Source: Tolypothrix carrinoi HA7290-LM1 (GTDB taxonomy: Bacteria; Cyanobacteriota; Cyanobacteriia; Cyanobacteriales; Nostocaceae). Taken from it: DNA of 55,518 nt. Each line of letters starts with the position of its first letter. Position 1 is the first letter of the stretch. This document shows positions 26,901-43,194 of the stretch, one piece after another. The DNA is taken from assembly GCA_019358935.1 (NCBI GenBank), contig JAHHIK010000055.1, positions 1 through 55,518 on the forward strand. Reading direction: 5' to 3'. Under the pieces are notes generated by a model that saw nothing but the letters and a program-made list of their open reading frames with translations, was not told where the DNA came from and made no database searches. The position numbers were made by a program, and so were the translations under genes.

Positions 26901-29900
26901 TAAATTTTCCTTTTGAAGCATGCGCTGCAAAACTTTGGAGTTAGTTCGTCTGACGGTTAGTCCCTCCACCTGAGCAATAACCACTCCATTCGGGTCTAGT
27001 AGACTCAAATCAGCGCTCAACAGTTGCTGCTCTAACCCCTTAGCTTGTAGAATTTTGACTTGACTCCATAATAAATGAGTATTGGGGCGATCATAAATTC
27101 TCAAGCGCTCTACACTCACAGGTAAATAAGCATTTTGCCGCTCATCTCTTGAAAAAATACCCGCTATAACCTGAGAGCTAGCGTCTAGGAGAATAGGATG
27201 TAATTGATACTGAGCAACTTCTGAGTGTAATACTTCTGGCAATCTAATTTGTCCGATCGCCTCTTGTTGACGTTTCCTAATTTGTACAACCGCTTGAAAG
27301 CTTGGACCAAAGTTGATGCCTACAGCCTGAAATTGTTGATAGAACTCAGCAACAGAAACTTCCTCTGGGTATTGAGTTTGTAAAGCAGTTAAGTCTACCG
27401 ATTCTGGCAAGAGTGCTGCTTCGTCCCTCTTGATTTTTCCAATTGCGTGTAATGTCCAGATGGGTTTCTCTTCATTCTGACTTTCTGTGAGGCTAAAGAT
27501 TTGGAAAGAGTAGCCATAAGTCTCTTGAGGCGTCAACAGCATTTGCAGAGTTTTACCCTCATCTTTTGGCAACATCAAAACTTGCTGAATCTCAACATTC
27601 TCTAGCACCAAATTTGAGGATTTGAAGACAGCTGCTCCTGCTGCGAAAGCCATCTCCAAGTAAGCTGTGGCTGGTACAATTACCACACCAAAAATGTTAT
27701 GAGCCTTCAGATAAGCTGGCGAATCTTGACTGATTTGGGACTGGAAATGAATATTCTCAGAACCCGGTAGATGCAAGCGTTGACCAAGTAAGGGATGATA
27801 CTTTTTAGCATTTATACTTATTGACGAAAGCTGCGTTTGATGATGGGTAATATTAGTCGTCTCCACCCAACAGCGCTGTCGTTGAAACGGATACGTAGGC
27901 AACACCACTCGCCGATGTGCATACTCCCGGTCAAACCCTGACCAGTCTACCTCAGTTCCACGTATGTATAACTGTGCTAAACTCTGCAGCATCTGCTGCC
28001 AATCTGACTGCCCCGGACGCAAGCTCGCAAGCCAAACTCCCACTTGTTCGCTTAAGCAGTTACGCCCCATCCCCAACAATGTCGCTTTGGCTCCTATCTC
28101 TAGAAACACCTCATAACCCTTTGCATGCAGTGTCTTGATACTTTTGGCAAATTGTACCGGACGCCGTAAATGTTGACACCAGTAATCAGGCGAAATCTCT
28201 TGCGATGTCAGTTGTTCTCCTGTGAGGTTGGAGATGAACTCAATTTGGGGAGTGGCGTAATTGACTGTGGCTGCTACCTCACGAAATTGAGCCAGTATTG
28301 GCTCCATTAGTGGTGAGTGGAAGGCGTGTGATGTTTGTAGCTTTTTCGTTGTGATTCCTGCTGCTTCTAAGGAGGCACAGATACTTACGACTGCCTGCAC
28401 TTCACCAGATATCACCGTGTTTTCTGGTCCATTAAAAGCTGCAATCGCTACTTTATCTGGCTCTAACTCCGTGATAGGACGTATGGATTCCTCCGAGGCA
28501 AATACTGCGACCATCTCACCACCAGCAGGCAAACTTTGCATCAGTTGGCTTCTTGCTACAATCAACTTGAGTCCATCTTCCAAACTCAAGACTCCCGCTA
28601 CAGTGGCAGCGACGTATTCCCCGACACTATGACCCATGACTGCATCTGGAACAATGCCCCAAGATTTCCACAACTGGAACAGGGCATATTCTATGGCAAA
28701 TAGGGCTGGTTGCGTGTAAGCTGTTTGGTTTAATTTTGGATTTTGGATTTCTCCGTCAAGCTCAGAGGACGACAAAACCTCTGGATATAGGATAGATAAC
28801 AGCGACTCGCCCAGGTAGGGACGTAAAATTTCGTCGCAACGGTTTATAGTTTGTCTAAAAACAGGGGCAATTTCATAGAGTTGACGCCCCATATTAATGT
28901 ATTGTGATCCTTGTCCTGTGAATAAAAATGCTATTTTCGAGTGCTTGCTGAGTGCTTGAGCGCTATAAAGTCCTGTTGTCGTTTCGCCTCTAGTAAAAGC
29001 CCCTAGCTGTTCGTATAATTCCACGGCTGATTGGGCTACCACAGCTAGCCGATAGTCAAAATGCGTACGCCCTGTATTAGCAGTAAAACACATGTCTTCT
29101 ACGGCTAACAATGGATTCGCTCTTAGGTAATTCTCATACCGAAGTGCTAACTGCTTGAGTGCCTCAGAGGTCTTCGCTGATAGCGTCAGCAGATGCATGG
29201 GGCGTTCCACTTGAACTGCCACTGTCTCTAATACTGGTGCTTCTTCCAACACTATATGCGCATTTGTACCACTCATGCCAAAGGAACTGACTCCCGCCAA
29301 CCGCCGTTTTTCTCCTGAAAACCAAGGCATTGGCGACTTTGGCACCACCACTGGCAGTTCATCCCAGTTGATGTAAGGACTCGGATGTTTGAAGTGCAGG
29401 TGGGGTGGAATCTCGTTATGTTGGAGGGAAAGCACCACCTTGATGACACCCGCTACTCCTGCTGCTGCTTCCAGGTGACCCATGTTAGTTTTCACTGAAC
29501 CAATTACCAGAGGGTTCTCTGGCGATCGCCCTTCACCCAGCACAGTTCCTAAAGCTCTTACCTCAATCGGGTCTCCCAAAGACGTTGCCGTACCGTGAGC
29601 CTCCACATAGTTTATTTCCGAAGGCTCTACCTTAGCGTTCTTGAGTGCTTGGCGAATCAGCACTTGTTGAGCCGAACCATTGGGAACCGTCAAACCACTG
29701 CTGGGTCCATCGTGGTTAATCGCTGAACCCCGAATAACAGCTAAGATGTTGTCTCGATCTGCCTCAGCATCCGAGAGACGCTTGAGAACTAAAACCCCGC
29801 ATCCCTCGCCCCGCGCAAAACCATTGGCAGCGGCATCGAAGGTGTAGCAGCGACCATCAGGGGAGAGGGCATGAGACCTGGATAGAAAAATATTTACTCC

Positions 29901-30629
29901 TGGTGACAGCATCAGTTGTACCCCGCCAGTCAAAGCCATATCGCACTCTCCGGTGCGGAGGCTTTTACAGGCTAAATGGATAGCCACCAACGAAGAAGAG
30001 CAAGCGGTATCCATAGATACGCTTGGACCCTGTAGCCCTAGAATATAGGACAATCGACCAGACGCAAAGCAAAAGCCATTACCCGTGCCGTCATAAGCGC
30101 TAATGTGTGTATTACCAGAATTCAGTTGCAATTGTGCATAATCATTTTGACCAATACCCACAAAAACGCCAGTTCGGCTATTAACTAAAGACTTTGGTGC
30201 AATTCCAGCCCTCTCCAAAGCTTCCCAGCTCACCTCTAAGAGTAACCGCTGCTGCGGATCTATGCTCGCCGCCTCTCTAGGGGAAATCCCAAAGAACAGG
30301 GGGTCGAACTGGTCTACCTGTTGCTGCAAAAATCCACCCATACGGGTGTACATTTTCCCTTGGGCATCGGGGTCTGGGTCATAGAAATCATTGATATTCC
30401 AGCGGTCATGGGGAACTTCTACCATCGCATCTACACCATCGCGCATCAGTCTCCAGAAAGCATCCGGATCGTCAGCACCCCCAGGGAAACGGCAGCCGAT
30501 ACCAATAATAGCGATCGGCTCTGTTTTTGAACGCTCAACCGCCTCAAGTTTGGTTCGCGCTTCTTTCAACGCCAGAAGAAGTCGTTGTGATTCAGACAGT
30601 TTTTCTATTCTATCAGAAATGTCGCCCAT
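23982..30629 (-). CDS. Fully reducing cis-AT PKS module KS-AT(malonyl)-DH-ER-KR-ACP
   Basis: [32 protein letters not shown] plus [30 protein letters not shown] (B-type), YAAAN; ACP GLDSL; C-terminal NNWIEVEL. Confidence 0.95.
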
Positions 30630-30630
30630 T

Positions 30631-33600
30631 TCAGTTTCCCCTTACTAAATTTTCTAGTTTCGCGAGTTCCTCGGCAATTGATGCTTCTATTCCATCATCG
30701 GAAATCTCTTCTACCTGTGATAAAGCCAAGGCTTGCTCGTCTTCACCTTTAGGTAACTCCGTGTCACTTGCCGCAGGTAACTCCCAACCCATAACCTTCT
30801 TAGCCAGATATCCGGCAACATCTTTAATCGTCGGAAATTCAAAGGTTAAAGTCACTGGAAGAGAAACGCCAAAACTAGCTTCCAAACGGTTCTTTAGCTC
30901 GACTGCCATCAGAGAGTCCATGCCCATGTCAAAAAAACCTTGTTGCGAATCTGGCAATTTGGATGGCTCAAGCTTCAGTACCTTGGCGACTTCACCTTGA
31001 ATGTAAGCAGTTAAGACAGAGAAGCGATCGCTTGCCGAGTACTGTTTTAACTGTTGTAAAATATCACTCTTTGATACCTCTAACCTTTCAGTTTGTAGCT
31101 GTGTTTGGTTCTTAAGTTCGGAAAGCAGCGGGGATAACTCAGAGAAGGGCAAATTTAAAAGAAGTTGCGACCAGTTAACCGACACCACTCCAACCTGAGA
31201 CAGGTCTTGTTGAAGTAACAGTTGCAGCATTTCTAATCCTTGCTGGGGTGCAATTCTCTCAATCCCTAAACGAGCAAGACCCTCATGTGCCTTACGTCCG
31301 TAGGGTGTAGCTGCGTGACCAATATCAGCCCAAGGTCCCCAATTGATGCTCAGAGCAGGTTGACCGTGAGCACGTCGGTGATGTGCCAGAGCATCAAGAA
31401 AAGCATTGGCTGCTGCATAGTTTCCTTGACCGGGCATACTCACCAGGCAAGCAGCAGAAGAGAAAAGAACGAAGAAATCCAAAGGGCTATTCTGCGTTAG
31501 AGTATGTAGATTCCAAGCACCCTCAACCTTAGCTGTTCTAACCTTGATAAAGCGCTGCCAGTCTTGCTGAACCAATAAGCTATCGTCAAGAACTCCTGCT
31601 AAGTGAACAACACCGCGTAGCGGCAGTTGAGAGCGCTCGATATCTGCAATAACTTTGGCTACTTGCTCTTGACTAGATACATCTAAGAGTACTGTCTTGA
31701 CTTCAACACCAAGCTTTTTGAATTCGCTCAACGTTTGATTAGCTGTCTCGGAAGCTGCACTACGTCCTAACAGCACCAGATGTTTTGCTCCTCGCTCGAC
31801 CATCCAACGTGCAACCAACAGTCCCAAACCGCCTAACCCACCAGTAATCAAGTAGGTGGCGTCAGGTAATAAATCCGATTGTCTAACTGGCAAGAGCATT
31901 TTCCTGGCATATCTCAGGCGGGCGACATAACGCTGTTCCTGACGGAAAGCTATTTGGTTTTCTCCATCTGGATTTTGTATGGTATTAAACAGCAGCCCAG
32001 CAGCTTCGTCCAATGACGATGACCGTTCGAGATCCACAAGTGTTGTTGGAAGGTTTGGGTATTCAACAGAGACCACTCGTCCCAATCCCCATAAAGGTGC
32101 CTGAGCAACTGCCAACGTTGTAGACTCCTTACTAACTGGCTGTGTTCCCTTAGTTACAAACCATATAGGCAGCTTTGTTGTCGCTGTCTGAGCCAGTGCT
32201 TGAATTAAGTGCAAGGCGCTAGCAACACTTAATACCTGATCTTTCTCTAGAGTAGCGATGGTCGTCTCTTCTAGAGGCGTTGTGTCTAAACTCCACAAAT
32301 GCACCACACCCAGGCAAGGCGATCGCGTCTCCCCCAGTATGGTCTGAATTAACTGATGCATTTGTTCTGGAACGCTGGGGTTGAGACAAAATTGCCCCTC
32401 CAGTGAAACCTTGTAGGCTTCACCTGGGGTAACCATAAAGCAGGTTTCTCCTCGTGCTTTTAACAGTGCTGCCAGCTTTTGTCCTATACCACTCTTGTCT
32501 GTAAATATCAGCCAGCTACCTGGCTGTTGTGGTGGCAGAGACTCTTTTTCTTCTTGCAGCTTGAGCTGCCACTGTAGTTCGTAAAGCCAATCCTGTAGAG
32601 AATTTGTATGCGTTTCTACAAGGTTATCTTGGTTACTACGTTTAACTCCGTGGGTAGTTCGCTGTAATCGCAACCCAGAAACAGTGACTACTACATTCCC
32701 TAACCGATCCAGAAGGTGCACATCTCCTTCCAATAATGGGTCAGCACTATTGCTTACCTCTGACCGCAGAACAGCGTGACTCCAAAGGGTCTGGTCAATG
32801 CGACCGTGGAGTTCCAAACTGCGAAGACCAGCAGGTATGTAAAGCGTACCGCTATTATTTGAAAGACTGTAAGTTGGTAGTGCAGCTACTAACACTTGGA
32901 AACAAGCATCCAAGAATGCCGGGTGGATTTTGTAAGCATCTGCTGATGGTTTGAGTTCTTCAAGTAGCTGCACTAGCCCTAAGGCTTCCCCATCACGTCG
33001 CCAGATGTGTTCTATACCCTGAAAACTCGCTTCCAACTGCACGCTGTATTGGCGCAACTTGTGATAAAATTCCGAACCAGCAATTTCCTCTTGACATCGA
33101 GCTTGGATTTGTTCTGGTAGTTCTAAACTAGAATTAGCACCATTAGTTGAAGTTGCCGAAAAACTTAACTCGGCAGTCAAGGTTTCGGGTACAGTTAAAG
33201 AACGATGTAGCGGCGATCGCTTTTGAGCGACATTATTGTAACGCTCTTGGAGTTGATTTAAATAAGGTAGATGCTTTAAAATTAAATCTGCGCTAGGTCC
33301 AAAGTCGAGCAGACAAGCTGCTTCATCGACACCTATACTATCTAATTGCTCTAGCAAATTAACACAGGTTTCTGGTGTTCCGATGAGTCCTCTAGAAGAA
33401 GCAAATCTTTCAAATAAGAAATTAACAAAATCATCCAGGTCTTTTGGAGACATGGCAGCGATATTTATGCTGTGACCTCTACTGCTGCCAAGATTCTTAA
33501 GCAGACCGATGTTTGACTTGAGATATTCGCAGTAGGGTGCGCGAACCAGCTCGCGGACAACATTCATGTCCTCTCCAACAAAGGTATGCAACATCACCGT

Positions 33601-34275
33601 TACCACACCTGTTTGGGGATCGTGTCCGTGCTTCGCGCGTGCCTGGCGATAAAGGGCAATTTTTTCGGCTAACTGCTCAATGCTCTGATCTAGTAGATGA
33701 GTCAAAAGATTGGCACCAATCTCCCCAGCTTTAATAAAAGTTTGGGGGCTTCCGGCAGCTGTGAGCCAAACAGGTAATTCTTTTTGGATTGGCGTTGGGT
33801 AGATCCGCAGATCAATCTGGTTCCCAATGCCATTTGTTGCCTGGATGGATTCCCCCTGCCACAGTTTTTGTACTATCTCGATGCCAGAAAACATTTCTTT
33901 ATGGCGATCTTGATATTTTTCTGGAAAGAAAGCAAAGTCATCAGGGTTCCAGCCAGGAGCAAAGGAAATTCCTACCCTACCTCCGGACAAATTATCGACA
34001 ACAGCCCACTCTTCCGCAATCCGAATGGGATTGTGTATTGGCACTACCACACTACCAGCCTGCAAGCGGAGGTGCTTAGTTTCCCTTGCTAGTGCCGCGT
34101 GCAACACTGCTGGATTTGGGTAAAGACATCCAAACTTTGTAAAATGCCGTTCTGGTACCCACAAACTAGAAAAGCCGTGTTGGTCTGCAAATTTAGCACT
34201 GTCAATAACCAGATGATATTTATCTCCGATTAAAGCTTCTTCACTGCTGGCAAAAAACATTAAGCCGAACTGCAT
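30631..34275 (-). CDS. PKS half-module: luciferase-like monooxygenase - C-terminal half of DH - KR - ACP
   Basis: N-terminus MQFGLMFFAS...WVPERHFTKFGCLYPNP (LLM, about aa 1-345); DH second half [45 protein letters not shown] 8 nt before the ATG. Confidence 0.9.
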   Translation of the reverse strand: MQFGLMFFASSEEALIGDKYHLVIDSAKFADQHGFSSLWVPERHFTKFGCLYPNPAVLHAALARETKHLRLQAGSVVVPIHNPIRIAEEWAVVDNLSGGRVGISFAPGWNPDDFAFFPEKYQDRHKEMFSGIEIVQKLWQGESIQATNGIGNQIDLRIYPTPIQKELPVWLTAAGSPQTFIKAGEIGANLLTHLLDQSIEQLAEKIALYRQARAKHGHDPQTGVVTVMLHTFVGEDMNVVRELVRAPYCEYLKSNIGLLKNLGSSRGHSINIAAMSPKDLDDFVNFLFERFASSRGLIGTPETCVNLLEQLDSIGVDEAACLLDFGPSADLILKHLPYLNQLQERYNNVAQKRSPLHRSLTVPETLTAELSFSATSTNGANSSLELPEQIQARCQEEIAGSEFYHKLRQYSVQLEASFQGIEHIWRRDGEALGLVQLLEELKPSADAYKIHPAFLDACFQVLVAALPTYSLSNNSGTLYIPAGLRSLELHGRIDQTLWSHAVLRSEVSNSADPLLEGDVHLLDRLGNVVVTVSGLRLQRTTHGVKRSNQDNLVETHTNSLQDWLYELQWQLKLQEEKESLPPQQPGSWLIFTDKSGIGQKLAALLKARGETCFMVTPGEAYKVSLEGQFCLNPSVPEQMHQLIQTILGETRSPCLGVVHLWSLDTTPLEETTIATLEKDQVLSVASALHLIQALAQTATTKLPIWFVTKGTQPVSKESTTLAVAQAPLWGLGRVVSVEYPNLPTTLVDLERSSSLDEAAGLLFNTIQNPDGENQIAFRQEQRYVARLRYARKMLLPVRQSDLLPDATYLITGGLGGLGLLVARWMVERGAKHLVLLGRSAASETANQTLSEFKKLGVEVKTVLLDVSSQEQVAKVIADIERSQLPLRGVVHLAGVLDDSLLVQQDWQRFIKVRTAKVEGAWNLHTLTQNSPLDFFVLFSSAACLVSMPGQGNYAAANAFLDALAHHRRAHGQPALSINWGPWADIGHAATPYGRKAHEGLARLGIERIAPQQGLEMLQLLLQQDLSQVGVVSVNWSQLLLNLPFSELSPLLSELKNQTQLQTERLEVSKSDILQQLKQYSASDRFSVLTAYIQGEVAKVLKLEPSKLPDSQQGFFDMGMDSLMAVELKNRLEASFGVSLPVTLTFEFPTIKDVAGYLAKKVMGWELPAASDTELPKGEDEQALALSQVEEISDDGIEASIAEELAKLENLVRGN

Positions 34276-37200
34276 AATTTTTTCTCCTGTTCGTTACTGT
34301 GAGCAATTTTTGCAGTTGCGTGCAGTGTCCACTTTTTAGAGGATGGGTCTGCATCTGTTGGGCGGCTGTAAACTTGAAAAGATGTTAAGCCATCCACATC
34401 AGTAGCAAGGATAATCTGAACGGTTTGAGTGCCATTCTCAGGAATGAAGAGTACATTGTGCAGTTCCAAATCCCTGACTTGGTGAAATCCCCCAAAAACT
34501 TCTTCGCAAGCAACCAAAGCCATTTCTAAGTAAACTGCGACAGGTACAACTGCGGCTCCAAGGAGTCGATGCTGCGTTAGATAAGGGAGGCGGCGCTTAT
34601 CAAGCTCAATTTCCCAAAAGTAATGGTTGGGAAGATGCGCTAGGTTTTTTAATTGAGGACCTAAAAGCGGATGTCCCTTGGTATCGTTTGAGTTCTGCCA
34701 AGTTTCCAGAGGCTGCGAGTTTTTCGATGGTAGTTTTGTCTCAATCCAATAGCGCGATCGCTCCCACGGATAAGTCGGTAAATTCACTCTTTGTCCCTGA
34801 TTTTCTTGGTAAAAACCAGACCAGTCTACGTCTACTCCATGTACGTACAGTTCCCCCAAACTTTCGAGCATTTGCTGACAATCTGACTGTCCTTGGCGCA
34901 AACTGGGGAGCCAAACTCCCTCGACTGCGGGCAAGCAGTTGCGACCCATCCCCAACAACGTTGGTTTTGGTCCAATCTCCACAAACACCTCATAACCAGA
35001 GGTATGAAGTGTCTTTAAACTTTCAGCAAATTCTACGGGGGAACGTAAATGGCGACACCAGTAGTCAGGGGTGATATCTGATGTCAGTTGCTCACCCGTG
35101 AGGTTGGAGACGACCGTCATTTGGGGAGCTGCGTAGGTAACATTGTCCGCCACCTCACGGAATTGAGCCAGTATCGGCTCCATCAGTGGTGAGTGGAAGG
35201 CGTGGGAGGTTTGTAGCTTTTTAGTTTTAATTTTTGCTGCTTCTAATTGGGTACAGATTGCCTGCACTGCTTGCGCCTCTCCAGAAATTACGGTGTTCTG
35301 CAACCCATTATAAGCGGCAAATGATACTTTTTTATTATCAATTTCATGAAGTTTCCGTATAAATGCGGGTGAGGCAAACACTGCTACCATCTCACCACCA
35401 GTCGGCAAACTCTGCATCAAGCGGGCACGTTCGCTGATGAGCTTTAGTCCATCCTCCAAGGTGAAGACTCCCGCTACAGTTGCAGCGACGTATTCCCCTA
35501 CACTATGACCCATCACCGCTGATGGGTCAATGCCCCAAGATTTCCACAATTGCACCAAAGCATATTCTAGGGCGAATAAAGCAGGTTGGGTATAAGCGGT
35601 CTGGTCTAGCGGTGAAGCCTCGCCCGGTTTGGGATAGAGGACTTGCAGCAGTGACTGCCCCAAGTAGGGACGCAGAATTTCATCGCAGCGGTCGAGGGCT
35701 TGCCGGAAGATGGGCGCATTTTCGTAGAGTTGGCGTCCCATGCCCAAATACTGAGAGCCTTGACCAGTAAACAAAAACGCTATTTTCTGGCGCTTGCTGT
35801 TGTTTACCTGACCGCTTACTAGTTTGGCAGTCTCTTTCTTAGCAGCGAAGGCTTCTAGCTGTTCTCGTAACTGCACGGTAGATTCAGCAACTACGGCAAG
35901 GCGGTGGTTAAAATGCGATCGCCCCGTATTAGCAGTAAAACAAACATCGAAAAGCGATACTTCAGGATGAGACGCTAAGAAATCTACATAACTTTGTGCT
36001 AGTTCCGAAAGTGCCTTCTCGCTTTTTGCTGAAAGCGTCAAAAGGTGCATCTTGGGTTGAATATCATTAGCACTTGTGGTGGTAGGTGGTGCTTCTTCCA
36101 GGATGACATGACAATTTGTGCCACCGAAGCCAAATGAGCTTACCCCTGCCAAGCGGCGTTCTGTGAGCGCAACCCAAGGCTGGCGTTCAGTAGGGATAGA
36201 AAAAGTTGTTCCTTTTAGGGAAATATAAGGATTTAGCTGCTCCAAATGCAGATTCGGTGGTATCTCCGCGTGTTGCATTGAAAGTACCACCTTGATCAGT
36301 CCAGCAATTCCAGCAGCACCCTCTAAATGACCAATATTAGTTTTAACCGAGCCAATCCAACAGGGTTGATCTGGCTCCCGACCCTGCATTAGCACGGCTT
36401 TTAGGGATTTAACTTCGATTGGGTCTCCCAAAGAGGTGGCAGTGCCGTGAGCTTCAACATAGCTAATTTGCGTTGATGCCACGCCTGCATTTTCCAAGGC
36501 TTCACGGATAACCGCCTGTTGGGAAGGTCCATTGGGTGCTGTCAGTCCATTGCTCAGACCATCTTGGTTAACTGCTGAACCTTTGATAATTGCTTGAATA
36601 TTGTCTTTATCCCGAAGTGCATCTTTTAGGCGCTTAAGAACTACTATGCCGCAGCCCTCCCCCCTTACGTAACCGTTAGCACTTGCGTCAAAGGTTTTAC
36701 ACCGACCATCAGCTGACATCATGTGTGCTTGAGAGAAAGTTATGCTCGGCTCAGGGGACAGAATCAAGTTTACCCCTCCAACTAAGCACAGATTGGACTC
36801 GCCGTTCTGCAAACTTTGACACGCGAAGTGGACTGCAACCAAGGAAGAAGAGCAAGCAGTATCTAGTGCCACACTCGGTCCTCGTAAATCCAGCACATAG
36901 GATACGCGGTTAGCGGCAATGGAGAAAGCAGTTCCTGTACCGCTGTGTGCATTAATACCGGATAATTTCTGGTAGGTAAGTCTGTGATAGTCAGCATTAC
37001 ATATGCCGATAAAAACTCCAGTCTTGCTGCCTGCTAGCTTTTGCGGTACAATTGCGGCGTTTTCTAGAGCTTCCCAAGCGACCTCCAACAATAATCTTTG
37101 CTGGGGGTCCATCGGTTCTGCCTCACGAGGGGAAATGCCGAAGAAGCTTGGTTCAAATTGATCTACCTGCTCTAGGAAGCCACCCCAACGGGTATTCATT

Positions 37201-37376
37201 TTTTCTGGAGTAGCTGGCTTTGGGTCATACAAGGTGTCAATATCCCAGCGTTCTTTTGGTACTTCCGTAATGGTATCCACCCCGTTACGCAAGAGCTGCC
37301 AGAATGATTCTGGGTTGTTAGCACCAGGAAAACGACAGCCAGTACCGATAATTGCTATAGGTTCCATTTCCTTCAC
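34260..37376 (-). CDS. PKS half-module: KS-AT(malonyl)-N-terminal half of DH
   Basis: [30 protein letters not shown]; ends with HPLLG...HRLLGAAVVP (DH catalytic His motif)...WTLHATAKI, then stops. Start may be the ATG at 37367 (MEPIAIIG). Confidence 0.92.
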   Translation of the reverse strand: MKEMEPIAIIGTGCRFPGANNPESFWQLLRNGVDTITEVPKERWDIDTLYDPKPATPEKMNTRWGGFLEQVDQFEPSFFGISPREAEPMDPQQRLLLEVAWEALENAAIVPQKLAGSKTGVFIGICNADYHRLTYQKLSGINAHSGTGTAFSIAANRVSYVLDLRGPSVALDTACSSSLVAVHFACQSLQNGESNLCLVGGVNLILSPEPSITFSQAHMMSADGRCKTFDASANGYVRGEGCGIVVLKRLKDALRDKDNIQAIIKGSAVNQDGLSNGLTAPNGPSQQAVIREALENAGVASTQISYVEAHGTATSLGDPIEVKSLKAVLMQGREPDQPCWIGSVKTNIGHLEGAAGIAGLIKVVLSMQHAEIPPNLHLEQLNPYISLKGTTFSIPTERQPWVALTERRLAGVSSFGFGGTNCHVILEEAPPTTTSANDIQPKMHLLTLSAKSEKALSELAQSYVDFLASHPEVSLFDVCFTANTGRSHFNHRLAVVAESTVQLREQLEAFAAKKETAKLVSGQVNNSKRQKIAFLFTGQGSQYLGMGRQLYENAPIFRQALDRCDEILRPYLGQSLLQVLYPKPGEASPLDQTAYTQPALFALEYALVQLWKSWGIDPSAVMGHSVGEYVAATVAGVFTLEDGLKLISERARLMQSLPTGGEMVAVFASPAFIRKLHEIDNKKVSFAAYNGLQNTVISGEAQAVQAICTQLEAAKIKTKKLQTSHAFHSPLMEPILAQFREVADNVTYAAPQMTVVSNLTGEQLTSDITPDYWCRHLRSPVEFAESLKTLHTSGYEVFVEIGPKPTLLGMGRNCLPAVEGVWLPSLRQGQSDCQQMLESLGELYVHGVDVDWSGFYQENQGQRVNLPTYPWERSRYWIETKLPSKNSQPLETWQNSNDTKGHPLLGPQLKNLAHLPNHYFWEIELDKRRLPYLTQHRLLGAAVVPVAVYLEMALVACEEVFGGFHQVRDLELHNVLFIPENGTQTVQIILATDVDGLTSFQVYSRPTDADPSSKKWTLHATAKIAHSNEQEKKLCSSA

Positions 37377-37414: not shown

Positions 37415-38287
37415 TTAATTACGAGGGTTGTCAATGCGGCGCATGGAAATTCGCAATAGGTCCATAGTTCCTATGTGGAAACCAATCTTACAAAAGTTGA
37501 GATATTTTTCATATTTGGCAACCACTTCCTCCCCAACCAGGTTGACTGCTTCTTCCCTGTTCGCTTTTAGCCTATTGAGCCAAACTTTGAGCGTGCGTTC
37601 GTAATGTTCGCGATCGTTTTGAAGTGTGACAATCTCGAAAATCCGTTCGCTCGCTTTGGCGATATCTGCAATAGTTGGTAAATCTGATTCGGGGAATATA
37701 TCATCGCCGATGAACTTGCTCATGTCTTGTTTGCGACAGTTACCATGAGCGATTGTTTGAAGCGATACCCAACCTCCTGGTTTCAGCCACTGGTGACAGC
37801 GCTGTAAAAATGTACGATAGCCCTCTATTTTCTCAGATTCGGAAAAATCCGGTTTAGCAAAGTGCTCGAAGGCACCAATGGAAATTATTGCGTCGTAAGG
37901 TTCTTTTGGAGAATGGTCTGACCAGCTCTCTAACTTAACTTCAATTTGTGGATGGTTCAACGACGCAATCCAGTCTGCCTGTGCCTTGCTCAAGGTCAGA
38001 CCAACACCCTGCTCAACACCATAGATTTCCACAAGGCGCTTTAATGTGGAACCCCAGCCGCAACCTACATCTAAAACTCGTTTGACACCCTTTGCTCTAG
38101 CCCGCTCAATATGAAAGTCAATTTTTCTTAACTGCGCTAATTCGAGGTCATCGTTTTCTTCCCAAAGCGCAGACGAATAAGTGTTGGTGCTGTCAAGCCA
38201 AATTCGATAAAAATCGTTACTCACATCATAATGATGCTGAATTGCCTCTACCGATGCACCAGGATTTTGAGTTTTCACAGAATTCAT
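37415..38287 (-). CDS. SAM-dependent methyltransferase, cyclopropane/mycolic-acid synthase (CMAS) family
   Basis: HHYDVSNDFY...TYSSALW, VLDVGCGWG, SIGAFEHF, IFPESDLP, HYERTL; 290 aa; GGAGG RBS upstream. Confidence 0.88.
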   Translation of the reverse strand: MNSVKTQNPGASVEAIQHHYDVSNDFYRIWLDSTNTYSSALWEENDDLELAQLRKIDFHIERARAKGVKRVLDVGCGWGSTLKRLVEIYGVEQGVGLTLSKAQADWIASLNHPQIEVKLESWSDHSPKEPYDAIISIGAFEHFAKPDFSESEKIEGYRTFLQRCHQWLKPGGWVSLQTIAHGNCRKQDMSKFIGDDIFPESDLPTIADIAKASERIFEIVTLQNDREHYERTLKVWLNRLKANREEAVNLVGEEVVAKYEKYLNFCKIGFHIGTMDLLRISMRRIDNPRN

Positions 38288-38319
38288 AGCAATGTCCTCC
38301 CTTTGACAAGCTGATTAAA

Positions 38320-38451
38320 AATTCATAATTGATAATTCATAATTATGTTTGGTGATGGGGATTTCAACCCCACCTGAAACTAGACTGCCTGTAGAGGCAC
38401 TCCTTTACAAACCCTTTTTAATTATGAATTATAAGTTAATAATTATGAATT
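38320..38451. repeat. Small element bounded by inverted heptamer (ATAATTC/GAATTAT) STRR-like repeats
   Basis: Left aattcataattgataattcataatt, right aattatgaattataagttaataattatgaatt, internal hairpin ggtgatgggg...ccccacc. Confidence 0.6.
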
Positions 38452-38595
38452 AGGTTGACCTGATTGTTGCTGATTTCAAAAACCCATTATTAGGGCGCAA
38501 ACCGCCTCACGCTCACCAGTTAACCGCACGTTTATTGCCAAGAAATGGTGAGGCGGTATATGCTTGACCTATTTTGGAGAGTTTTTTCCTAAGGC

Positions 38596-38934
38596 TTACA
38601 CGTTTACTTTCAATTCCTCAGCTAAATGCCGCGCCAGACCCTCAATGGTAGGGTAATCGTAGAGTAAAGTAGGATCGATTTCATATCCAAGCCAGTCCTG
38701 TAAGTCACCACTCAGACTTATTGCTGCTGAGGAATCCAGACCGTAGCGCTCGAAGGGAATCGTGACATCAATCTCATTTGAGTTAATTTCCAGTTGTTTT
38801 GCCAGATAGGAGACAAGCCAGACTTGAATTTCTGTTGCAGTCGGCGGCTCCTTTTGTGCATTTTTTTTCGCATCGGCATTGTTATTTCCAGAAATCGTAG
38901 GCATCTCGTTGACTTGAACATTCTGCATTTCCAT
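38596..38934 (-). CDS. Stand-alone acyl carrier protein (starter ACP)
   Basis: EIQVWLVSYLAKQLEI...FERYGLDSSAA...PTLLYDYPTIEGLA; downstream of FAAL and desaturase. Confidence 0.92.
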   Translation of the reverse strand: MEMQNVQVNEMPTISGNNNADAKKNAQKEPPTATEIQVWLVSYLAKQLEINSNEIDVTIPFERYGLDSSAAISLSGDLQDWLGYEIDPTLLYDYPTIEGLARHLAEELKVNV

Positions 38935-38990
38935 TGATTGTGCCTCTACAAGTTTAACTAAGACGTTTTTTCACACGGCGACTGAAAGTA

Positions 38991-39998
38991 CTAGGCGATT
39001 TTTTTGGCTTCTTTTTTGGCTTCTATCATGCCTGCTGTGGGAGACTTGACATCCCAGACTAGACCAATCATTTCAAGAACTCGAATTACCCAGTAACCGA
39101 GGTCAATTTGCCACCATGAGAGTCCGAACTTTGCTGAGTTTGGAAAAGCATGATGGTTGTTGTGCCACGCTTCCCCACCAGTGGGAATGGCTAGCCAGAT
39201 ATTGTTCCTACTCCAATCGCCTGTATCAAAGGGACGGTTGCCAAAAAGATGGGTGATTGAGTTAATGCTGTTGGTAGCCTGATATGTGAGGAACAAGCGG
39301 ACAAGACCACCCCACAAAAATCCTGATAGAACACCCATCCAAGTCTGGGTCAAAATTCCGCCTAAGATAGCAGGGATGAATAGACCCAGAAGTACCCAAA
39401 CGTAGTAAAGCTGGTTGACTTTGGAGATGACAGGATCTCGAAGCAAGTCTTTGGCAAATAGAAAAGTATTAGTGATTTCCTGGGTAAACGTCCAGCCAAC
39501 GTGGGAATGCCATAAACCCTGGAGAAAACCTAGCTGTTGATCGTCCTTGACATATGGAGAATGGCTATCCCCAGATTCATCGCTGAACTGGTGATGACGC
39601 CGATGAGTGCTCACCCAAAAAATGACCGGACCTTGGCAAGCCATAGACCCCAAAATGGCGAGTATAACTCTAACCCAAGTATGAGTCTTAAAGGTGCAGT
39701 GCGAAAACTGCCGATGAAAACCCACACTAATCGCAGTCACGGTCAAGACGTACATGGCGATTAACAGCCCTACTTCTATTGGACTAATTCCCGAACGCGA
39801 GGCTATGGCAATTGCTACTACCGTTCCAAGTAAAGGAATTAAGACACTAGCCAAGGCATGAAGCTGCTGTGGAGTTTTCAGGCGATCGCTTTTGATTGTT
39901 ATTTTCTGCTTATGAGGTGAACTCACAAGAGCTTCATCTGTTTTTGTGCTATCTAAATACATCGTCATTGGTTTAGTTTGATTGCTTTTGCTGTTCAC
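38991..39998 (-). CDS. Membrane-bound fatty acyl desaturase (delta-9-like, JamB-like context)
   Basis: Three histidine boxes HRQFSH, HRRHH, HNNHH with hydrophobic segments; GTG start overlaps the FAAL stop. Confidence 0.92.
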   Translation of the reverse strand: MNSKSNQTKPMTMYLDSTKTDEALVSSPHKQKITIKSDRLKTPQQLHALASVLIPLLGTVVAIAIASRSGISPIEVGLLIAMYVLTVTAISVGFHRQFSHCTFKTHTWVRVILAILGSMACQGPVIFWVSTHRRHHQFSDESGDSHSPYVKDDQQLGFLQGLWHSHVGWTFTQEITNTFLFAKDLLRDPVISKVNQLYYVWVLLGLFIPAILGGILTQTWMGVLSGFLWGGLVRLFLTYQATNSINSITHLFGNRPFDTGDWSRNNIWLAIPTGGEAWHNNHHAFPNSAKFGLSWWQIDLGYWVIRVLEMIGLVWDVKSPTAGMIEAKKEAKKIA

Positions 39999-41830
39999 AA
40001 ACTTTGATTTGCTGCCATAGTTTTTGTTGCTTGTGTTTCTTGCAGTTGTTGCAATAAAGAATCAACTTCACTATCCAAATGCAGGAATTTCGTTTTGTTC
40101 TGAGGATTCTCACTCCAATCTTGCACCACATCTAAACTTCCACTTACAAAACCAGATCGACAAGCATGACGCTGAATTTTATTACTGGAAGTTTTGCAAA
40201 TAGTGCCAGTCCTAACTAATACCGCAGCATAAACCTGGAGACCGTGATGCGTCGCTACGCTGTGGCGGATATTTCCAACTACCTCATTCACATCCAGTTT
40301 TCGCAGGTAAGAGCGCTCCACCTCATGAACAATTACCAGTCGTTCTTCACCCTTTACCTCTACCGCAAACGCTGCCCCGCAACCACGCCGCAGTGCCGGA
40401 TGACTCCTCTCTACGGTCAGTTCAATGTCTTGGGGATAATGGTTTTGCCCTCGGATGATAATAACATCTTTGATGCGCCCCGTGACAAACAACTCGCCAT
40501 TCTGCAAGAATCCTAAGTCCCCCGTCCGCAGGAACAGTCCCTCTTCTGTGTCTAGCAGTTGCGCTCCAAAGGTTTGCTTTGTCTGTTCTGGTCGATTCCA
40601 ATAGCCCTGTGCCACACTCGAACCTGATACCCAAATTTCACCTATCTCATTGGGCTTACAGCGGGTCATTGTCTCTGGATTGGCAATGACAACCTTCATG
40701 TCTTGCAAGGCTTGACCGCAACCAACCACTGTTTGGCTGGCGGAATCCTCCTTGCTAGCTGTAACTACGCGATTTTGCTCTAGCGCTTCTTTTTGAACGT
40801 TTTGCAGGACTGGCGCTTGGCTTGCATGACCACCAGAAATGATCAGAGTCGTTTCTGCCATGCCGTAACAGGGGTAGAATGCCTCGCGGCGGAAGCCACA
40901 AGGTGCAAAAGCCGCTACAAAACGCTCCATAGTTTCGGGACGGATCTGTTCGGCTCCGTTGAAAGCTATCTGCCAACTACTGAGGTCGAGAGTCGCCCGC
41001 TCTTCCTCCGTAATCTTGTTCACGCATAGCTCGTAAGCAAAACTAGGTCCGCCGCTGGTGGTGCCTTTATATTGAGAAATTGCCGTCAGCCAGCGCAAAG
41101 GCTTTTGTAGGAAGTTTTCCGGCGACATAAGTATGACGGGGAATCCACCATAGAGGGGCTGTAGGACTCCACCAATCAACCCCATATCATGGTAAGGAGG
41201 CAGCCATATAACTCCCTTGCTGTTGGGGGTATGCTCAAAACACTTATGGATCAGAGTTGAATTGTGCAGCAAATTGCCATGACTTACCATTACCCCTTTC
41301 GGTGTTCCGGTAGAACCTGAGGTATACTGGAGAAAAGCTAGGGTACTGCTTTCCAAAGCTGTTCTCTGCCATGACTCCGCCTGATGTTCGTCAATGTTGT
41401 CAGTAGCCAAACAGCGCAATCCAGCTAGTTCTGCATTCTCGGCAAACCGACTCTCGATGTTACTCAATAGAGCTTCTGTGGTGAGTAACACCTGAGGTTG
41501 GGCATCTGCCACAATCGCCTCGATTCGGGACATTTTTTGATTGCGCCTGGGTGGATAAGCGGGAACAGCCACAACAGAGGCGTACAGACATCCGAAAAAG
41601 GCGGCAATGAATTCTAGACCGGATGGATATAGCAGTAAAGCTCGTTGTCCGGTAGCTCCTATGCTCTGGAGTTGAGCCGCGATCGCCCGTGCCTGTCGGT
41701 CCAATTCTCCATAAGTCAGACTACTTAATTCTGTGTCTGTGTCTTTTATAAAGGTATAAGCTCTTTGGTCTTGCTGCTGTTGCGACCTTTCTCTCAAGAC
41801 ATCTACCAAAGTAGAAAATTCTTGTAACAT
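39995..41830 (-). CDS. Fatty acyl-AMP ligase (FAAL)
   Basis: FLQYTSGSTGTPKGV, WLPPYHDMGLIG, CYGMAETTL followed by the FAAL-type insertion (QKEALEQNRVVTAS...), LRTGDLGF; AGGAG upstream. Confidence 0.93.
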   Translation of the reverse strand: MLQEFSTLVDVLRERSQQQQDQRAYTFIKDTDTELSSLTYGELDRQARAIAAQLQSIGATGQRALLLYPSGLEFIAAFFGCLYASVVAVPAYPPRRNQKMSRIEAIVADAQPQVLLTTEALLSNIESRFAENAELAGLRCLATDNIDEHQAESWQRTALESSTLAFLQYTSGSTGTPKGVMVSHGNLLHNSTLIHKCFEHTPNSKGVIWLPPYHDMGLIGGVLQPLYGGFPVILMSPENFLQKPLRWLTAISQYKGTTSGGPSFAYELCVNKITEEERATLDLSSWQIAFNGAEQIRPETMERFVAAFAPCGFRREAFYPCYGMAETTLIISGGHASQAPVLQNVQKEALEQNRVVTASKEDSASQTVVGCGQALQDMKVVIANPETMTRCKPNEIGEIWVSGSSVAQGYWNRPEQTKQTFGAQLLDTEEGLFLRTGDLGFLQNGELFVTGRIKDVIIIRGQNHYPQDIELTVERSHPALRRGCGAAFAVEVKGEERLVIVHEVERSYLRKLDVNEVVGNIRHSVATHHGLQVYAAVLVRTGTICKTSSNKIQRHACRSGFVSGSLDVVQDWSENPQNKTKFLHLDSEVDSLLQQLQETQATKTMAANQSL

Positions 41831-42911
41831 TATATTTTGAATACTCCTAATTATTAGACAGGTGGATTTTGATGAAATGTTTTCGTATGAAGTTACCAGA
41901 TTAGCGATCGCTCACTTTAATGAATGCTGAAAATGCTGCTTTTAACTTCACTTATTCGTTTTTTTACTTGATTTACAGTGTACCAAGCGCTACTCCGCTT
42001 TTATGCATTTTAAGATTTATGCTACTCCATCCTCCGTGCATTCACTTAAATTTAATTTATCTTATTATGTTCTATGATATCCATTATTTACTGAAAATAT
42101 ACATAAACTTTATATAACCCTTTAATCTTTAAATAACCCAATCGTGACTCACAGCTTGTTTTTCAGACAAGATGCACCATAAGCGCAACTGTACTAAGAC
42201 TATCATTACTGAAAGCTCTAGCACTTAATTATTTAGTAAAAATTTTAACTTAAATCTTTAGTATTGAAGTATACTGTTAGTTTTACGCTTGATGACTTCA
42301 ACTTTAATAATGTGCCACGGTTATATTTGTCGAAAATCTAGTCTGAATCCCCGCAACAATATTCTTTTTCTCTCATAAAACATTTACATTCCTATACAAT
42401 AGAGTGTTATTGAAACTACACGATTTGTCAACATTAATTTGTAATCTCTTCTCTAAAGAGGATAACCAAATCCATCACAACTGCTATAAACTAGCGAGAC
42501 TTTAATAAGTTAAACTAATATAAAATTAAGTATAAAAAGAGACATAAAACCTGAAAATAATACATGTATAGGTTCATCAAAAGCATCGTCAGCCTACATT
42601 TACTTACTTTCTGAACATTATTTACCAACTACTTTTGCAGATGTTCCTACATATGCTAAAATTAACACGCCAAACAAAGAAGATTTTAAAAATTAGATAA
42701 AGATTATAAGCTGGCAAGGCAGATTTATAAAGATTAAATGAACATCTCATCAATAATATTTATATCTTTCTCAAGATAGATTATGAAAAAATCATTTGTC
42801 TTTCTAAAGATAGATTATGAAAAAAAATTTGTCTTTCTCAAGATAGATATCTAAAACAATCAAAGCAAGATAATAATTTGTAAATATCAAAGAAAAAAGC
42901 CAAACAGAAAA
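41831..42911. promoter_or_regulatory. AT-rich divergent intergenic region between the BGC and a small peptide gene
   Basis: About 1.08 kb, visibly very AT-rich, no credible ORF, flanked by divergent start codons. Promoters not individually located. Confidence 0.6.
42765..42848. repeat. Three copies of the imperfect palindrome TCTTTCT-(C/A)A-AGATAGA at 34/33-bp period
   Basis: Copies start at 42765, 42799, 42832; linkers ttatgaaaaaatcatttg and ttatgaaaaaaaatttg; ends about 65 bp before the ATG at 42912. Confidence 0.85.
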
Positions 42912-43127
42912 ATGTATCAGGCAAAACAAAAGGCAACTAAAGCTGACAATGAAGCAAATGTTTGGGAGCAGGAAGAGGAACTGGATGATGCAGATTTAAT
43001 GACTGTGGTAGGTGGGTTTTTGGATGTAAGTAATAACAATGTGTACATCCCTATTGGTGGACTTACATTACTGGGAGGGGGTTCGGGAGGATCTGGAGGT
43101 CCGGTATTTTCCAATTCTAAGGATTAA
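42912..43127 (+). CDS. Double-glycine-leader small peptide (bacteriocin/RiPP-type precursor), 71 aa
   Basis: Leader ends ELDDADLMTVVGG; 36-aa core FLDVSNNNVYIPIGGLTLLGGGSGGSGGPVFSNSKD. Confidence 0.78.
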   Translation: MYQAKQKATKADNEANVWEQEEELDDADLMTVVGGFLDVSNNNVYIPIGGLTLLGGGSGGSGGPVFSNSKD

Positions 43128-43194
43128 ATGGACTTGGGGGCTTACTCGACAATGGTCTCCACAATGGTCAGTTACTAATTTATTAACTTCGCTC

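What the first reader, a model, noticed from the sequence alone, without database searches (positions are those of the whole stretch)
32660..34680. PKS dehydratase split between two genes with a luciferase-like monooxygenase wedged between the hot-dog halves
Seen: the upstream protein ends right after the DH half carrying the catalytic His (HRLLGAAVVP). The next protein opens with a full LLM, then the half carrying the catalytic Asp (HPAFLDACFQ), then KR-ACP. The genes overlap by 16 nt and the second has its own AGGAG RBS, so the split looks real. Established: cis-AT DHs are double-hot-dog folds with His and Asp from different halves. Inference: the two halves reassemble in trans, serving as the docking interface, and place the oxygenase next to the ACP-bound intermediate for on-line hydroxylation, epoxidation or Baeyer-Villiger chemistry.
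Basis: partly seen in the sequence, partly recalled or inferred. Interest (0 to 1): 0.86.

Follow-up and report, generated by a model that had tools for sequence, protein, structure and literature searches.

The report
Flavin hydroxylase nested in split PKS dehydratase
One polyketide synthase module is cut into two proteins in the middle of its dehydratase fold, with a flavin oxygenase at the cut; the cut is real, but this module type is widespread and also occurs in a locus matching the pathway of the antifungal occidiofungin.

Summary
On the minus strand, gene 34260-37376 encodes KS-AT plus the N-terminal hot-dog of a PKS dehydratase (DH). Gene 30631-34275 encodes a complete TIGR04020 luciferase-like monooxygenase (LLM), the C-terminal hot-dog, KR and ACP. 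There is a 16-nt overlap and an AGGAG 8 nt before the ATG.

It is not an artefact. All 12 cyanobacterial loci that hold both halves are cut at the same point, with different junction geometries. A second split copy lies in the same genome. Contigs of three other runs bridge the junction without an indel.

Single-chain forms also exist. A Burkholderia locus that fits the occidiofungin cluster has the same cut. The acid assigned to that pathway carries hydroxyls on both carbons this module would build.

Most likely the LLM alpha-hydroxylates the ACP-bound beta-keto intermediate and the KR reduces it to a 2,3-diol. The DH fold then acts mainly as scaffold and as the interface between the two proteins. 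The catalytic His is kept in only 35 of 55 relatives, and a complex model scored 0.82 against a best control of 0.00.

This scan reported the same module type twice before on other DNA. Verdict: a new member of a known kind that is poorly described in print.

The parts
34260..37376 (-). Gene 1 (P0001, 1038 aa): KS-AT plus the N-terminal hot-dog of the DH fold
   Evidence: ORF; translation; Pfam
36240..37367 (-). KS domain (aa 4-379)
   Evidence: PF00109 3e-103 and PF02801 8.9e-46
34830..35777 (-). AT domain (aa 534-849). It holds GHSVGE and HAFH; reading these as a malonyl signature is my recollection.
   Evidence: PF00698 2e-63; motifs read
34263..34673 (-). DH N-terminal hot-dog (aa 902-1038). 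It has the HPLLG and HRLLGAAVVP motifs; His936 is encoded at 34569-34571.
   Evidence: PF21089 3e-21; aligned with relatives and with a canonical DH; matches the N halves of CurK, CurF and CurJ DH
34260..34275 (-). 16-nt overlap: stop TAA of gene 1 at 34260-34262, start ATG of gene 2 at 34273-34275
   Evidence: the same junction in L001 and L002; no indel in the contigs of 3 other runs
34284..34288 (-). AGGAG, 8 nt upstream of the ATG of gene 2, inside the coding end of gene 1
   Evidence: read; the same letters in L001-L003
30631..34275 (-). Gene 2 (P0002, 1214 aa): LLM, DH C-terminal hot-dog, KR, ACP
33250..34269 (-). LLM domain (aa 3-342), MupA/Atu3671 family
   Evidence: TIGR04020 497.9 bits, cut-off 244.45; PDB 6KET 'PuwE' E 1.2e-124
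32644..33117 (-). DH C-terminal hot-dog (aa 387-544). HPAFLDACFQ is present, with Asp456 encoded at 32908-32910. LEA stands where canonical DHs have Y/F-G-P.
   Evidence: PF14765 2.1e-33; matches the C halves of CurF, CurK and CurJ DH; motif columns
31324..31860 (-). KR domain (aa 806-984). An LDD motif is present; reading it as a B-type signature is my recollection.
   Evidence: PF08659 1.4e-70; motif read
30805..31005 (-). ACP (aa 1091-1157)
   Evidence: PF00550 3.7e-16

Best explanation
This is one cis-AT PKS extension module made of two polypeptides. The cut lies in the linker between the two hot-dog halves of a DH-like fold, and at that same point a complete FMN-dependent LLM is inserted.

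Shown here:
- the domain order and the cut;
- that the cut is conserved in relatives;
- that single-chain forms of the same module exist.

Inferred:
1. The N hot-dog (end of protein 1) and the C hot-dog (after the LLM in protein 2) reassemble into one double hot-dog. This is the only evident contact holding KS-AT to LLM-KR-ACP.
2. After KS-AT extends the chain with malonate, the LLM alpha-hydroxylates the ACP-bound beta-ketoacyl thioester, using reduced flavin from a separate reductase and O2.
3. The KR then reduces the beta-keto group, so the module hands a 2,3-dihydroxyacyl chain to the next module (KS-AT-DH-ER-KR-ACP).
4. The DH fold acts mainly as a scaffold and causes no net dehydration, although this copy still has its His and Asp.
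For: The split is real.
- All 12 cyanobacterial loci that hold both halves stop just after the N hot-dog, and the next ORF starts at the LLM (M[QKR]FGLMFF). The junctions differ: -16, +18, +48, +72 (four loci), +116 to +125 (three loci) and +270 nt.
- The same genome has a second split copy on contig C63.
- In a sample of 401 genomes of the phylum, 4 genomes held 5 LLM+DHc copies. All 5 sit in open frames of 1176-1254 aa, the size of the split form.
- Contigs of runs X2, X4 and X5 span the junction with no indel between 33700 and 34716.

Single-chain forms exist.
- P0126 has DHn at 884-988, LLM at 1036-1348 and DHc at 1395-1556. P0134 has the same order.

Reassembly of the halves.
- Complex prediction gave ipSAE 0.82, against 0.00 for the best of 3 controls. 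That mark was reached by 116 of 157 solved complexes and 2 of 215 mismatched pairs. The runs agree in at least 75% of contacts, and the partner's pLDDT is at least 74.
- The confident contacts use only DHc residues (411-489 and 540). They include Asp456 against His48 of the fragment, which is His936 of P0001.
- This pass may reflect memory of solved single-chain DH structures.
- A split DH is known in cremimycin, where CmiP3 and CmiP2 were active once joined artificially (review passages).

Function of the LLM.
- The closest solved chain is the PuwE oxygenase domain, E 1e-124. PuwE is assigned the 2-hydroxyl of a 3-amino-2-hydroxy acid (passages).
- Other TIGR04020 LLMs in PKS modules are read as alpha-hydroxylases (passages).

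The diol.
- In Burkholderia arboris locus L026, a 1469-aa ORF ends in DHn, and a 3324-bp ORF encodes LLM-DHc-KR-ACP. The 3324 bp equals the published size of ocfI.
- The next ORF is KS-AT-KR-ACP-KS-AT-ACP.
- The product's acid is 3-amino-5,6,7-trihydroxystearic acid. By colinearity, C7-OH and C6-OH come from this module.
- Disrupting the ocfI homologue 6477 abolished haemolysis.

The DH as scaffold.
- The catalytic His is kept in 35 of 55 relatives: 7 of 14 split and 28 of 41 fused.
- An aromatic residue at the YGP position is kept in 36 of 169.
- Variants without a KR exist, so they have no beta-hydroxyl to remove: LLM-DHc-ACP-AmT..., LLM-DHc-ACP and LLM-DHc-ACP-TE.
Against: - This copy and its nearest relatives (L001-L003) keep both His936 and Asp456, so a catalytic role for the dyad here is not excluded.
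- Asp is kept in 141 of 169 relatives, and Glu in a further 20. That is more conservation than a pure scaffold needs.
- The product of this cluster is unknown.
- No flavin reductase gene was found among the window ORFs scanned.
- L025 and L026 are identified as ocf clusters only because gene order and sizes match a published table. The link from module to C6/C7 is a colinearity inference, not an experiment.
- The complex model is the program's own confidence, and it gave no confident position for the LLM relative to DHn.
- The two protein lists used for the counts are the top hits of two searches, not an unbiased sample.
Confidence: 0.6

Rival explanations
1. The reassembled DH is catalytically active and works with the LLM. 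After alpha-hydroxylation and ketoreduction it dehydrates the 2,3-diol to an enol, which becomes an alpha-keto thioester. Alternatively, its His acts as the base that enolises the beta-keto thioester for attack on the flavin hydroperoxide.
For: - His936 and Asp456 are both kept in the window and in L001-L003.
- They touch in the complex model.
- Asp or Glu is kept in 161 of 169 relatives.
- Alpha-hydroxy and alpha-keto products from an FMN monooxygenase acting with a PKS DH that has LGP in place of YGP are reported for the myxoglucamides (passages).
Against: - His is absent in 20 of 55 relatives that have the same architecture.
- The YGP motif is lost here.
- The occidiofungin acid keeps both hydroxyls although that copy has the His.
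- MupA needs no DH.
Confidence: 0.15
2. Ordinary KR then DH chemistry gives a 2-enoyl thioester. The LLM then epoxidises it, or oxidises another position. A diol, if any, would arise by opening of the epoxide.
For: - KR, His and Asp are all present in this copy.
- Some LLMs are epoxidases, as cited for mensacarcin in the passages read.
Against: - KR-less and His-less relatives keep the LLM-in-DH layout.
- The characterised relatives of this LLM family act on the alpha carbon of beta-keto or aminoacyl thioesters.
- The YGP motif is lost.
Confidence: 0.1
3. The LLM performs a Baeyer-Villiger type or chain-shortening oxidation, as proposed for CalD and MndB.
For: LLMs of this family are credited with alpha-hydroxylation followed by Baeyer-Villiger-type chain shortening in calyculin and mandelalide (passages).
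Against: - The module has an apparently intact KR and ACP and is followed by a normal extension module.
- The occidiofungin acid shows plain hydroxylation at the matching carbon.
Confidence: 0.05
4. The split is a sequencing or assembly frameshift, or a recent pseudogenising mutation, in a gene that is normally fused.
For: - Fused forms exist elsewhere.
- The two frames overlap by 16 nt.
Against: - 12 of 12 related loci are cut at the same point, with six different junction geometries.
- A second split copy lies in the same genome.
- The junction is identical in L001 and L002.
- Contigs of three other runs show no indel.
- The LLM model starts at residue 3 of the second ORF, which has its own AGGAG.
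Confidence: 0.02

Closest known systems
OcfJ/OcfI module of the occidiofungin (burkholdine) cluster, seen here in Burkholderia arboris locus L026 and Burkholderia sp. FXe9 locus L025
   Same: - The cut is at the same place...KS-DHn in one protein, LLM-DHc-KR-ACP in the next.
- LLM+DHc is 54% identical over 97% of the query.
- The genes overlap (4 nt there, 16 nt here).
- Both modules are primed by a FAAL.
   Different: - In Burkholderia, FAAL and ACP are fused to the KS, and Pfam found no AT between KS and DHn. Here FAAL and ACP are separate genes and an AT is present.
- In the passages I read, ocfI is called a flavin-dependent monooxygenase and ocfJ an NRP synthetase. The split DH is not mentioned.
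- The products differ, and the product here is unknown.
Split dehydratase of the cremimycin PKS (CmiP3/CmiP2); PDB 6K97 'Fusion DH' may be that construct, judged from its name only
   Same: - A cis-AT PKS DH is divided between two consecutive polypeptides.
- The joined halves dehydrate (review passages).
- The DHn here matches 6K97 at E 1.3e-5.
   Different: - The passages read mention no inserted domain there.
- That DH is an active dehydratase. Here a 340-aa LLM follows the cut, and the DH probably does not dehydrate.
- I did not read the primary paper (Kawasaki et al. 2019), so I do not know the exact cut site.
PuwE oxygenase domain (PDB 6KET) and the AmT+Ox modules that make 3-amino-2-hydroxy acids (puwainaphycin, microginin, tychonamide-type)
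   Same: - It is the closest solved relative of the LLM, E 1.2e-124 over aa 1-345.
- It is assigned an alpha-hydroxylation on a FAAL-primed PKS chain.
- Relatives such as P0133 have LLM-DHc-ACP-AmT.
   Different: - Those modules use an aminotransferase instead of a KR.
- The papers I read describe a monooxygenase domain but no DH halves around it.
MupA and OocM (trans-acting) and the integrated LLM of palmerolide module 9, in trans-AT PKSs
   Same: - Same TIGR04020 family.
- MupA alpha-hydroxylates an ACP-bound beta-keto thioester and needs a separate FMN reductase.
- Palmerolide pairs an LLM with a KR next to an alpha,beta-dioxygenated unit.
   Different: - Those are free-standing enzymes, or domains of trans-AT modules, that work with an ACP-KS0 bimodule.
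- In the passages read, none is nested in a DH fold.

Membership tests
PKS dehydratase, double hot-dog (PF21089 + PF14765) | N-terminal hot-dog with HPLL and HxxxGxxxxP (catalytic His) | tested here: met
   PF21089 at 75.7 bits; GHPLLG and HRLLGAAVVP align with the canonical DH of the next module
PKS dehydratase, double hot-dog (PF21089 + PF14765) | C-terminal hot-dog with DxxxQ/H (catalytic Asp) | tested here: met
   PF14765 at 115.7 bits; LDACFQ aligns with the canonical LDASSQ
PKS dehydratase, double hot-dog (PF21089 + PF14765) | GYxYGPxF motif (motif name recalled) | tested here: not met
   L-E-A stands where the canonical DH of the same window has F-G-P. In relatives the position is aromatic in 36 of 169 and Pro is kept in 18 of 169.
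PKS dehydratase, double hot-dog (PF21089 + PF14765) | Both halves on one chain, joined by a short linker | tested here: not met
   A stop codon follows the N half. The C half starts 386 residues into the next protein.
PKS dehydratase, double hot-dog (PF21089 + PF14765) | Dehydrates a 3-hydroxyacyl-ACP | not testable with these tools
   Indirect evidence only: His is lost in 20 of 55 relatives, and the beta-hydroxyl is kept in the occidiofungin acid.
MupA/Atu3671 FMN-dependent LLM (TIGR04020) | Full-length match above the curated cut-off | tested here: met
   497.9 bits against 244.45; model positions 1-340 of 341
MupA/Atu3671 FMN-dependent LLM (TIGR04020) | FMNH2- and O2-dependent oxidation of a carrier-bound thioester | not testable with these tools
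   Inferred from MupA and from the role assigned to PuwE
Split-DH PKS junction (cremimycin type) | DH divided between consecutive PKS polypeptides | tested here: met
Split-DH PKS junction (cremimycin type) | The halves associate into one fold | tested here: inconclusive
   The model supports this (ipSAE 0.82, best control 0.00; Asp456 against His936) but does not show it, and it may rest on memory of solved DH structures.
LLM-nested-in-DH hydroxylation module (OcfJ/OcfI type) | Order DHn / LLM-DHc-(KR)-ACP, with the cut or linker directly before the LLM | tested here: met
   Window; L026; 12 loci; fused P0126 and P0134
LLM-nested-in-DH hydroxylation module (OcfJ/OcfI type) | The product carries oxygen on both the alpha and the beta carbon of the unit built by the module | not testable with these tools
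   The product of this cluster is unknown. The feature is seen only for occidiofungin.

The most novel reading that the evidence does not exclude
The double hot-dog may be a working half of a composite oxidation site rather than a relic. In this reading the His936/Asp456 dyad, rebuilt across two polypeptides, either enolises the beta-ketoacyl-ACP so that the flavin hydroperoxide of the nested LLM can attack the alpha carbon, or converts the 2,3-diol into an alpha-keto thioester. A dehydratase fold would then have been recruited as the base catalyst of an oxygenase, and the cut would let the cell assemble it from two chains.
Probability: 0.15. Interest if true: 0.7.

Novelty: new member of a known kind. 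Interest (0 to 1): 0.4.

Why it matters
**Annotation.** Automatic pipelines and the occidiofungin passages I read label these proteins simply as a monooxygenase or an NRPS. That hides a PKS module assembled from two chains through a split hot-dog fold.

**Structure prediction.** Recognising the unit should improve predictions for orphan lipopeptide clusters. Wherever KS-(AT)-DHn | LLM-DHc-KR-ACP occurs, expect an alpha,beta-diol. With AmT in place of KR, expect a 3-amino-2-hydroxy acid.

**Engineering.** The unit offers a natural, portable junction for putting an on-line hydroxylase into cis-AT PKSs.

**Limits.** For this window alone the gain is modest. It is one more example of the type, in an orphan cluster primed by a FAAL, a desaturase and an ACP.

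Tried and rejected
**Literature.** All 10 searches of the held library were used.
- (LLM + PKS + dehydratase + split) found 0 papers.
- Searches found papers on LLMs, on split DH and on occidiofungin. None of the listings or passages I read describes an LLM nested between DH halves.
- TIGR04020 as a single word, Atu3671 and 'interrupted dehydratase' had no occurrence in any of the 11 papers one search listed.
- (6KET, PuwE, 6K97) was wasted: matching by word start returned unrelated papers.
- Subscription papers and all supplements were not seen and could hold such a description. Among them are Gu et al. 2011 on the ocf cluster and Kawasaki et al. 2019 on the cremimycin split DH.

**A guess not followed.** I wondered whether hassallidin's 2,3-dihydroxy fatty acid comes from such a module. 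One search returned only a review, and I did not pursue it.

**Earlier notes near this place.** There were none.

**Burkholderia sp. FXe9 (L025).** The ocfI-like region has stops in frame in that record. I used L026 instead.

**Frameshift or artefact reading.** Rejected.

**Flavin reductase gene.** None was seen among the 15 window ORFs scanned. Small ORFs were not scanned.

**Tree.** One search is a FastTree run on 169 rows. Its count of 8 state changes is rough, and two rows with an unclear N-terminus (P0027, P0078) are among the states counted.

Full report
**1. What is there**

The finding lies in a run of minus-strand biosynthetic genes. ORF 34260-37376 (P0001, 1038 aa) holds KS, AT and PKS_DH_N (aa 902-1005). 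It stops 33 residues after that match.

ORF 30631-34275 (P0002, 1214 aa) opens with a full MupA/Atu3671-type luciferase-like monooxygenase: TIGR04020, aa 3-342, 497.9 bits against a cut-off of 244. It continues with PS-DH (aa 387-544), KR and ACP.

The HRLLGAAVVP motif (His936) is on the first protein and HPAFLDACFQ (Asp456) on the second. The stop TAA (34260-34262) and the ATG (34273-34275) give a 16-nt overlap. AGGAG lies 8 nt before the ATG.

**2. It is not an artefact**

A scan of species-representative genomes gave 24 loci. Twelve cyanobacterial loci hold both DH halves and the LLM (L001-L008, L017-L020).
- In all 12 the upstream frame stops 2 to 14 residues after the last strand of the N hot-dog (W-x-L-H/Y-A-x-A-x-I/V-H).
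- In all 12 the next ORF starts with M-Q/K/R-FGLMFF.
- The junction DNA differs: an overlap of 16 nt (L001, L002, as here), and gaps of 18, 48, 72 (four loci), 116-125 (three loci) and 270 nt.

The window's own genome has a second copy on contig C63. It is 61% identical and also split, with a 43-nt gap.

In a sample of 401 genomes of the phylum, 4 genomes (G000 included) held 5 copies that cover LLM plus DHc. All 5 lie in open frames of 1176-1254 aa, the size of the split form.

Assembled contigs of four runs cover 33700-34900 in one piece. X1 may be the source of this DNA. X2, X4 and X5 are 95-99% alike and show only substitutions, plus three single-base deletions at 34717-34728, with nothing at the junction. 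These are contigs, not raw reads.

**3. The module type is widespread and also exists as one chain**

A search with LLM+DHc (aa 1-560) among proteins of similar length gave 5076 proteins at E <= 0.001 among the 8000 candidates scored. The 120 listed all carry PF00296 and PF14765. They come from cyanobacteria, Acidobacterium, Archangium, Paraburkholderia, Ktedonobacteria and Chloroflexota.

Among longer proteins there are single chains with KS-AT-DHn-LLM-DHc-KR-ACP, some preceded by FAAL-ACP. Pfam confirmed the order in P0126 and P0134.

I classified the 241 listed hits by blastp against parts of the window's proteins:
- 126 start with the LLM followed by DHc (P0002 itself included);
- 41 have a KS upstream and DHc downstream on one chain;
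- the rest carry the LLM in other contexts.

These are top hits of two searches, not an unbiased sample.

On a FastTree tree of the LLM-DHc part of 169 proteins, the split, fused and other states need at least 8 changes. The cut has therefore been made or healed several times.

In the fused forms, 15-30 residues link the N hot-dog to the LLM. The split forms end within that linker.

**4. What the LLM does elsewhere**

- The closest solved chain is 6KET 'PuwE', E 1.2e-124 over aa 1-345.
- PuwE's monooxygenase is assigned the 2-hydroxyl of the 3-amino-2-hydroxy-4-methyl acid of puwainaphycins (passages of PMC4219810).
- The same AmT+Ox pairing is described for other cyanobacterial beta-amino acids (passages of PMC13252402).
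- An LLM domain is annotated in micD of a microginin cluster (PMC9594780).
- The palmerolide paper lists further TIGR04020 LLMs in PKSs as alpha-hydroxylases, and two with Baeyer-Villiger-type chain shortening (passages of PMC8739492).

**5. Test of the occidiofungin lead**

Two earlier notes of this scan, on other genomes, said the same unit occurs in the occidiofungin cluster. I checked this myself.

A tblastn of plasmid and replicon records found Burkholderia sp. FXe9 and B. arboris with 54% identity over 97-98% of LLM+DHc.

In the FXe9 record the gene order matches the published ocf table. The sizes also match: 951, 987 and 1617 bp for the epimerase, dioxygenase and hydroxylase genes (against Table 1 of PMC9494966).

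In B. arboris (L026):
- ORF 4595-9004 is FAAL-ACP-KS-DHn, with PF21089 at aa 1339-1443 of 1469.
- ORF 9001-12324 is LLM-DHc-KR-ACP.
- The next ORF begins KS-AT-KR-ACP-KS-AT-ACP.

The fatty amino acid of occidiofungin is 3-amino-5,6,7-trihydroxystearic acid (passages of PMC9792986; also PMC8877233).

Read colinearly, the split module builds C7 and C6, both hydroxylated. The next module gives C5-OH, and the last, with an aminotransferase, gives the 3-amino group. This is an inference from domain order. It is the only case where the module can be set beside a known structure, and there the beta-hydroxyl survives.

Disruption of the ocfI homologue (gene 6477) in B. vietnamiensis abolished haemolysis (passages of PMC3442841), so the split protein is needed.

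**6. State of the DH**

Aligned with the canonical DH of the next module in this window, this copy keeps HPLL, the His motif and the Asp motif. It has L-E-A where the canonical DH has F-G-P.

Across 169 relatives:
- the Asp position is D in 141 and E in 20;
- the aromatic of the YGP motif is kept in only 36;
- the Pro of that motif is kept in 18.

Across 55 N halves (14 split, 41 fused), the catalytic His is kept in 35. It is replaced by Tyr in 15, Asn in 2 and other residues in 3. Among the 13 paired cyanobacterial copies, only the window, L001-L003 and L017 have both His and Asp.

Variants without a KR exist: LLM-DHc-ACP-AmT-C-A-PCP (P0133), LLM-DHc-ACP (P0047) and LLM-DHc-ACP-TE (P0102). 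In these a dehydratase would have no substrate.

Together this says the fold is kept for reasons other than dehydration. For this particular copy, an active dyad cannot be excluded.

**7. Do the halves meet?**

I folded the tail of P0001 (aa 889-1038) with P0002 aa 1-560, each with an alignment of 13 paired copies.
- The score was ipSAE 0.82, and the best of 3 controls was 0.00.
- That mark was reached by 116 of 157 solved complexes and 2 of 215 mismatched pairs.
- The runs agree in at least 75% of contacts, and the partner's pLDDT is at least 74.
- The confident contacts involve only DHc residues (411-418, 440-459, 480-489, 540). They include Asp456 with residue 48 of the fragment, which is His936.
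- No LLM residue is in the confident interface.

Because many single-chain DH structures are solved, this pass may come from memory. It shows that the two pieces look like one DH, not that they bind.

An independent precedent is the DH split between CmiP3 and CmiP2 of cremimycin, which dehydrated once the parts were joined (review passages, PMC11284099). PDB 6K97 'Fusion DH' matches the N half at E 1.3e-5.

P0001 has no C-terminal docking element, and P0002 starts directly with the LLM. The hot-dog pair is therefore the only evident link between them.

**8. Likely working in this cluster**

Gene order along the minus strand, starting upstream:
- a FAAL (39995-41830);
- a fatty-acid desaturase (38991-39998);
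- an ACP (38596-38934);
- a CMAS-type methyltransferase (37415-38287);
- the split module;
- KS-AT-DH-ER-KR-ACP (23982-30629);
- a three-module NRPS (13135-23985);
- two KS-AT-KR-ACP modules;
- a further NRPS that runs off the window.

The most likely sequence of events is:
1. The fatty acyl starter is passed to the KS of P0001 and extended with malonate. (The AT has HAFH; calling that a malonyl signature is my recollection.)
2. The LLM hydroxylates C2 of the beta-ketoacyl-ACP.
3. The KR reduces C3.
4. The 2,3-dihydroxyacyl chain moves on to the next module.

Shown: the anatomy, its conservation and the existence of fused forms. Inferred: the association of the halves, the substrate and timing of hydroxylation, and the silence of the DH.

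**9. Novelty**

LLM oxygenase domains in PKS and NRPS lines, alpha-hydroxylation by this family, and split DH domains are each in print.

In none of my ten searches of the held library did a listing or passage I read describe an LLM nested between the DH halves, or the recurrent cut there. The occidiofungin passages label the two genes without it. Subscription papers and supplements were not seen.

The scan itself reported the same unit twice before on other DNA. This window therefore adds a further, well-documented member, and a second copy in the same genome, rather than a new kind.

Noticed in passing
window 13135-23985 (-), protein aa 769-1081 (about 20740-21680): The three-module NRPS carries a second luciferase-like monooxygenase, 51% identical to the PKS one. 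It lies before the first AMP-binding_C (aa 1307-1381). Pfam reports AMP-binding in 4 stretches for 3 modules, which fits an adenylation domain interrupted by the oxygenase.
   Followed up: no
G000 contig C63 24784-26418 (+), locus L028: The same genome holds a second split LLM-in-DH module. The upstream ORF ends ...WTLYATAQVHL, and the LLM ORF starts 43 nt later. The His is kept and Asp is replaced by Glu.
   Followed up: partly
window 37415-41830 (-): A FAAL, a membrane fatty-acid desaturase, a free ACP and a CMAS-type (cyclopropane-synthase-like) methyltransferase stand directly upstream of the PKS. The first three resemble the JamA/B/C alkyne-forming trio, which is my recollection and was not tested. 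The starter may therefore be an unsaturated and methyl- or cyclopropyl-modified fatty acid.
   Followed up: no
L026 4595-9004 (Burkholderia arboris): The OcfJ-sized protein has FAAL-ACP-KS followed by the KS-AT linker families and DHn. Pfam found no acyltransferase domain, so that module may be loaded in trans.
   Followed up: no
L025 20001-23320 (Burkholderia sp. FXe9): In this record the ocfI-like and ocfH-like regions are broken into several annotated CDSs and have stops in frame. This may be assembly error or decay.
   Followed up: no
window 42001-44000 and 48842-49243 (-): G+C drops to 0.35 just upstream of the cluster. An IS200-like Y1 transposase ORF lies at 48842-49243.
   Followed up: no
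G000 contig C29 24743-25798 (-), locus L029: A third LLM of this family (53% identical, LLM part only) sits inside a 1487-aa open frame.
   Followed up: no
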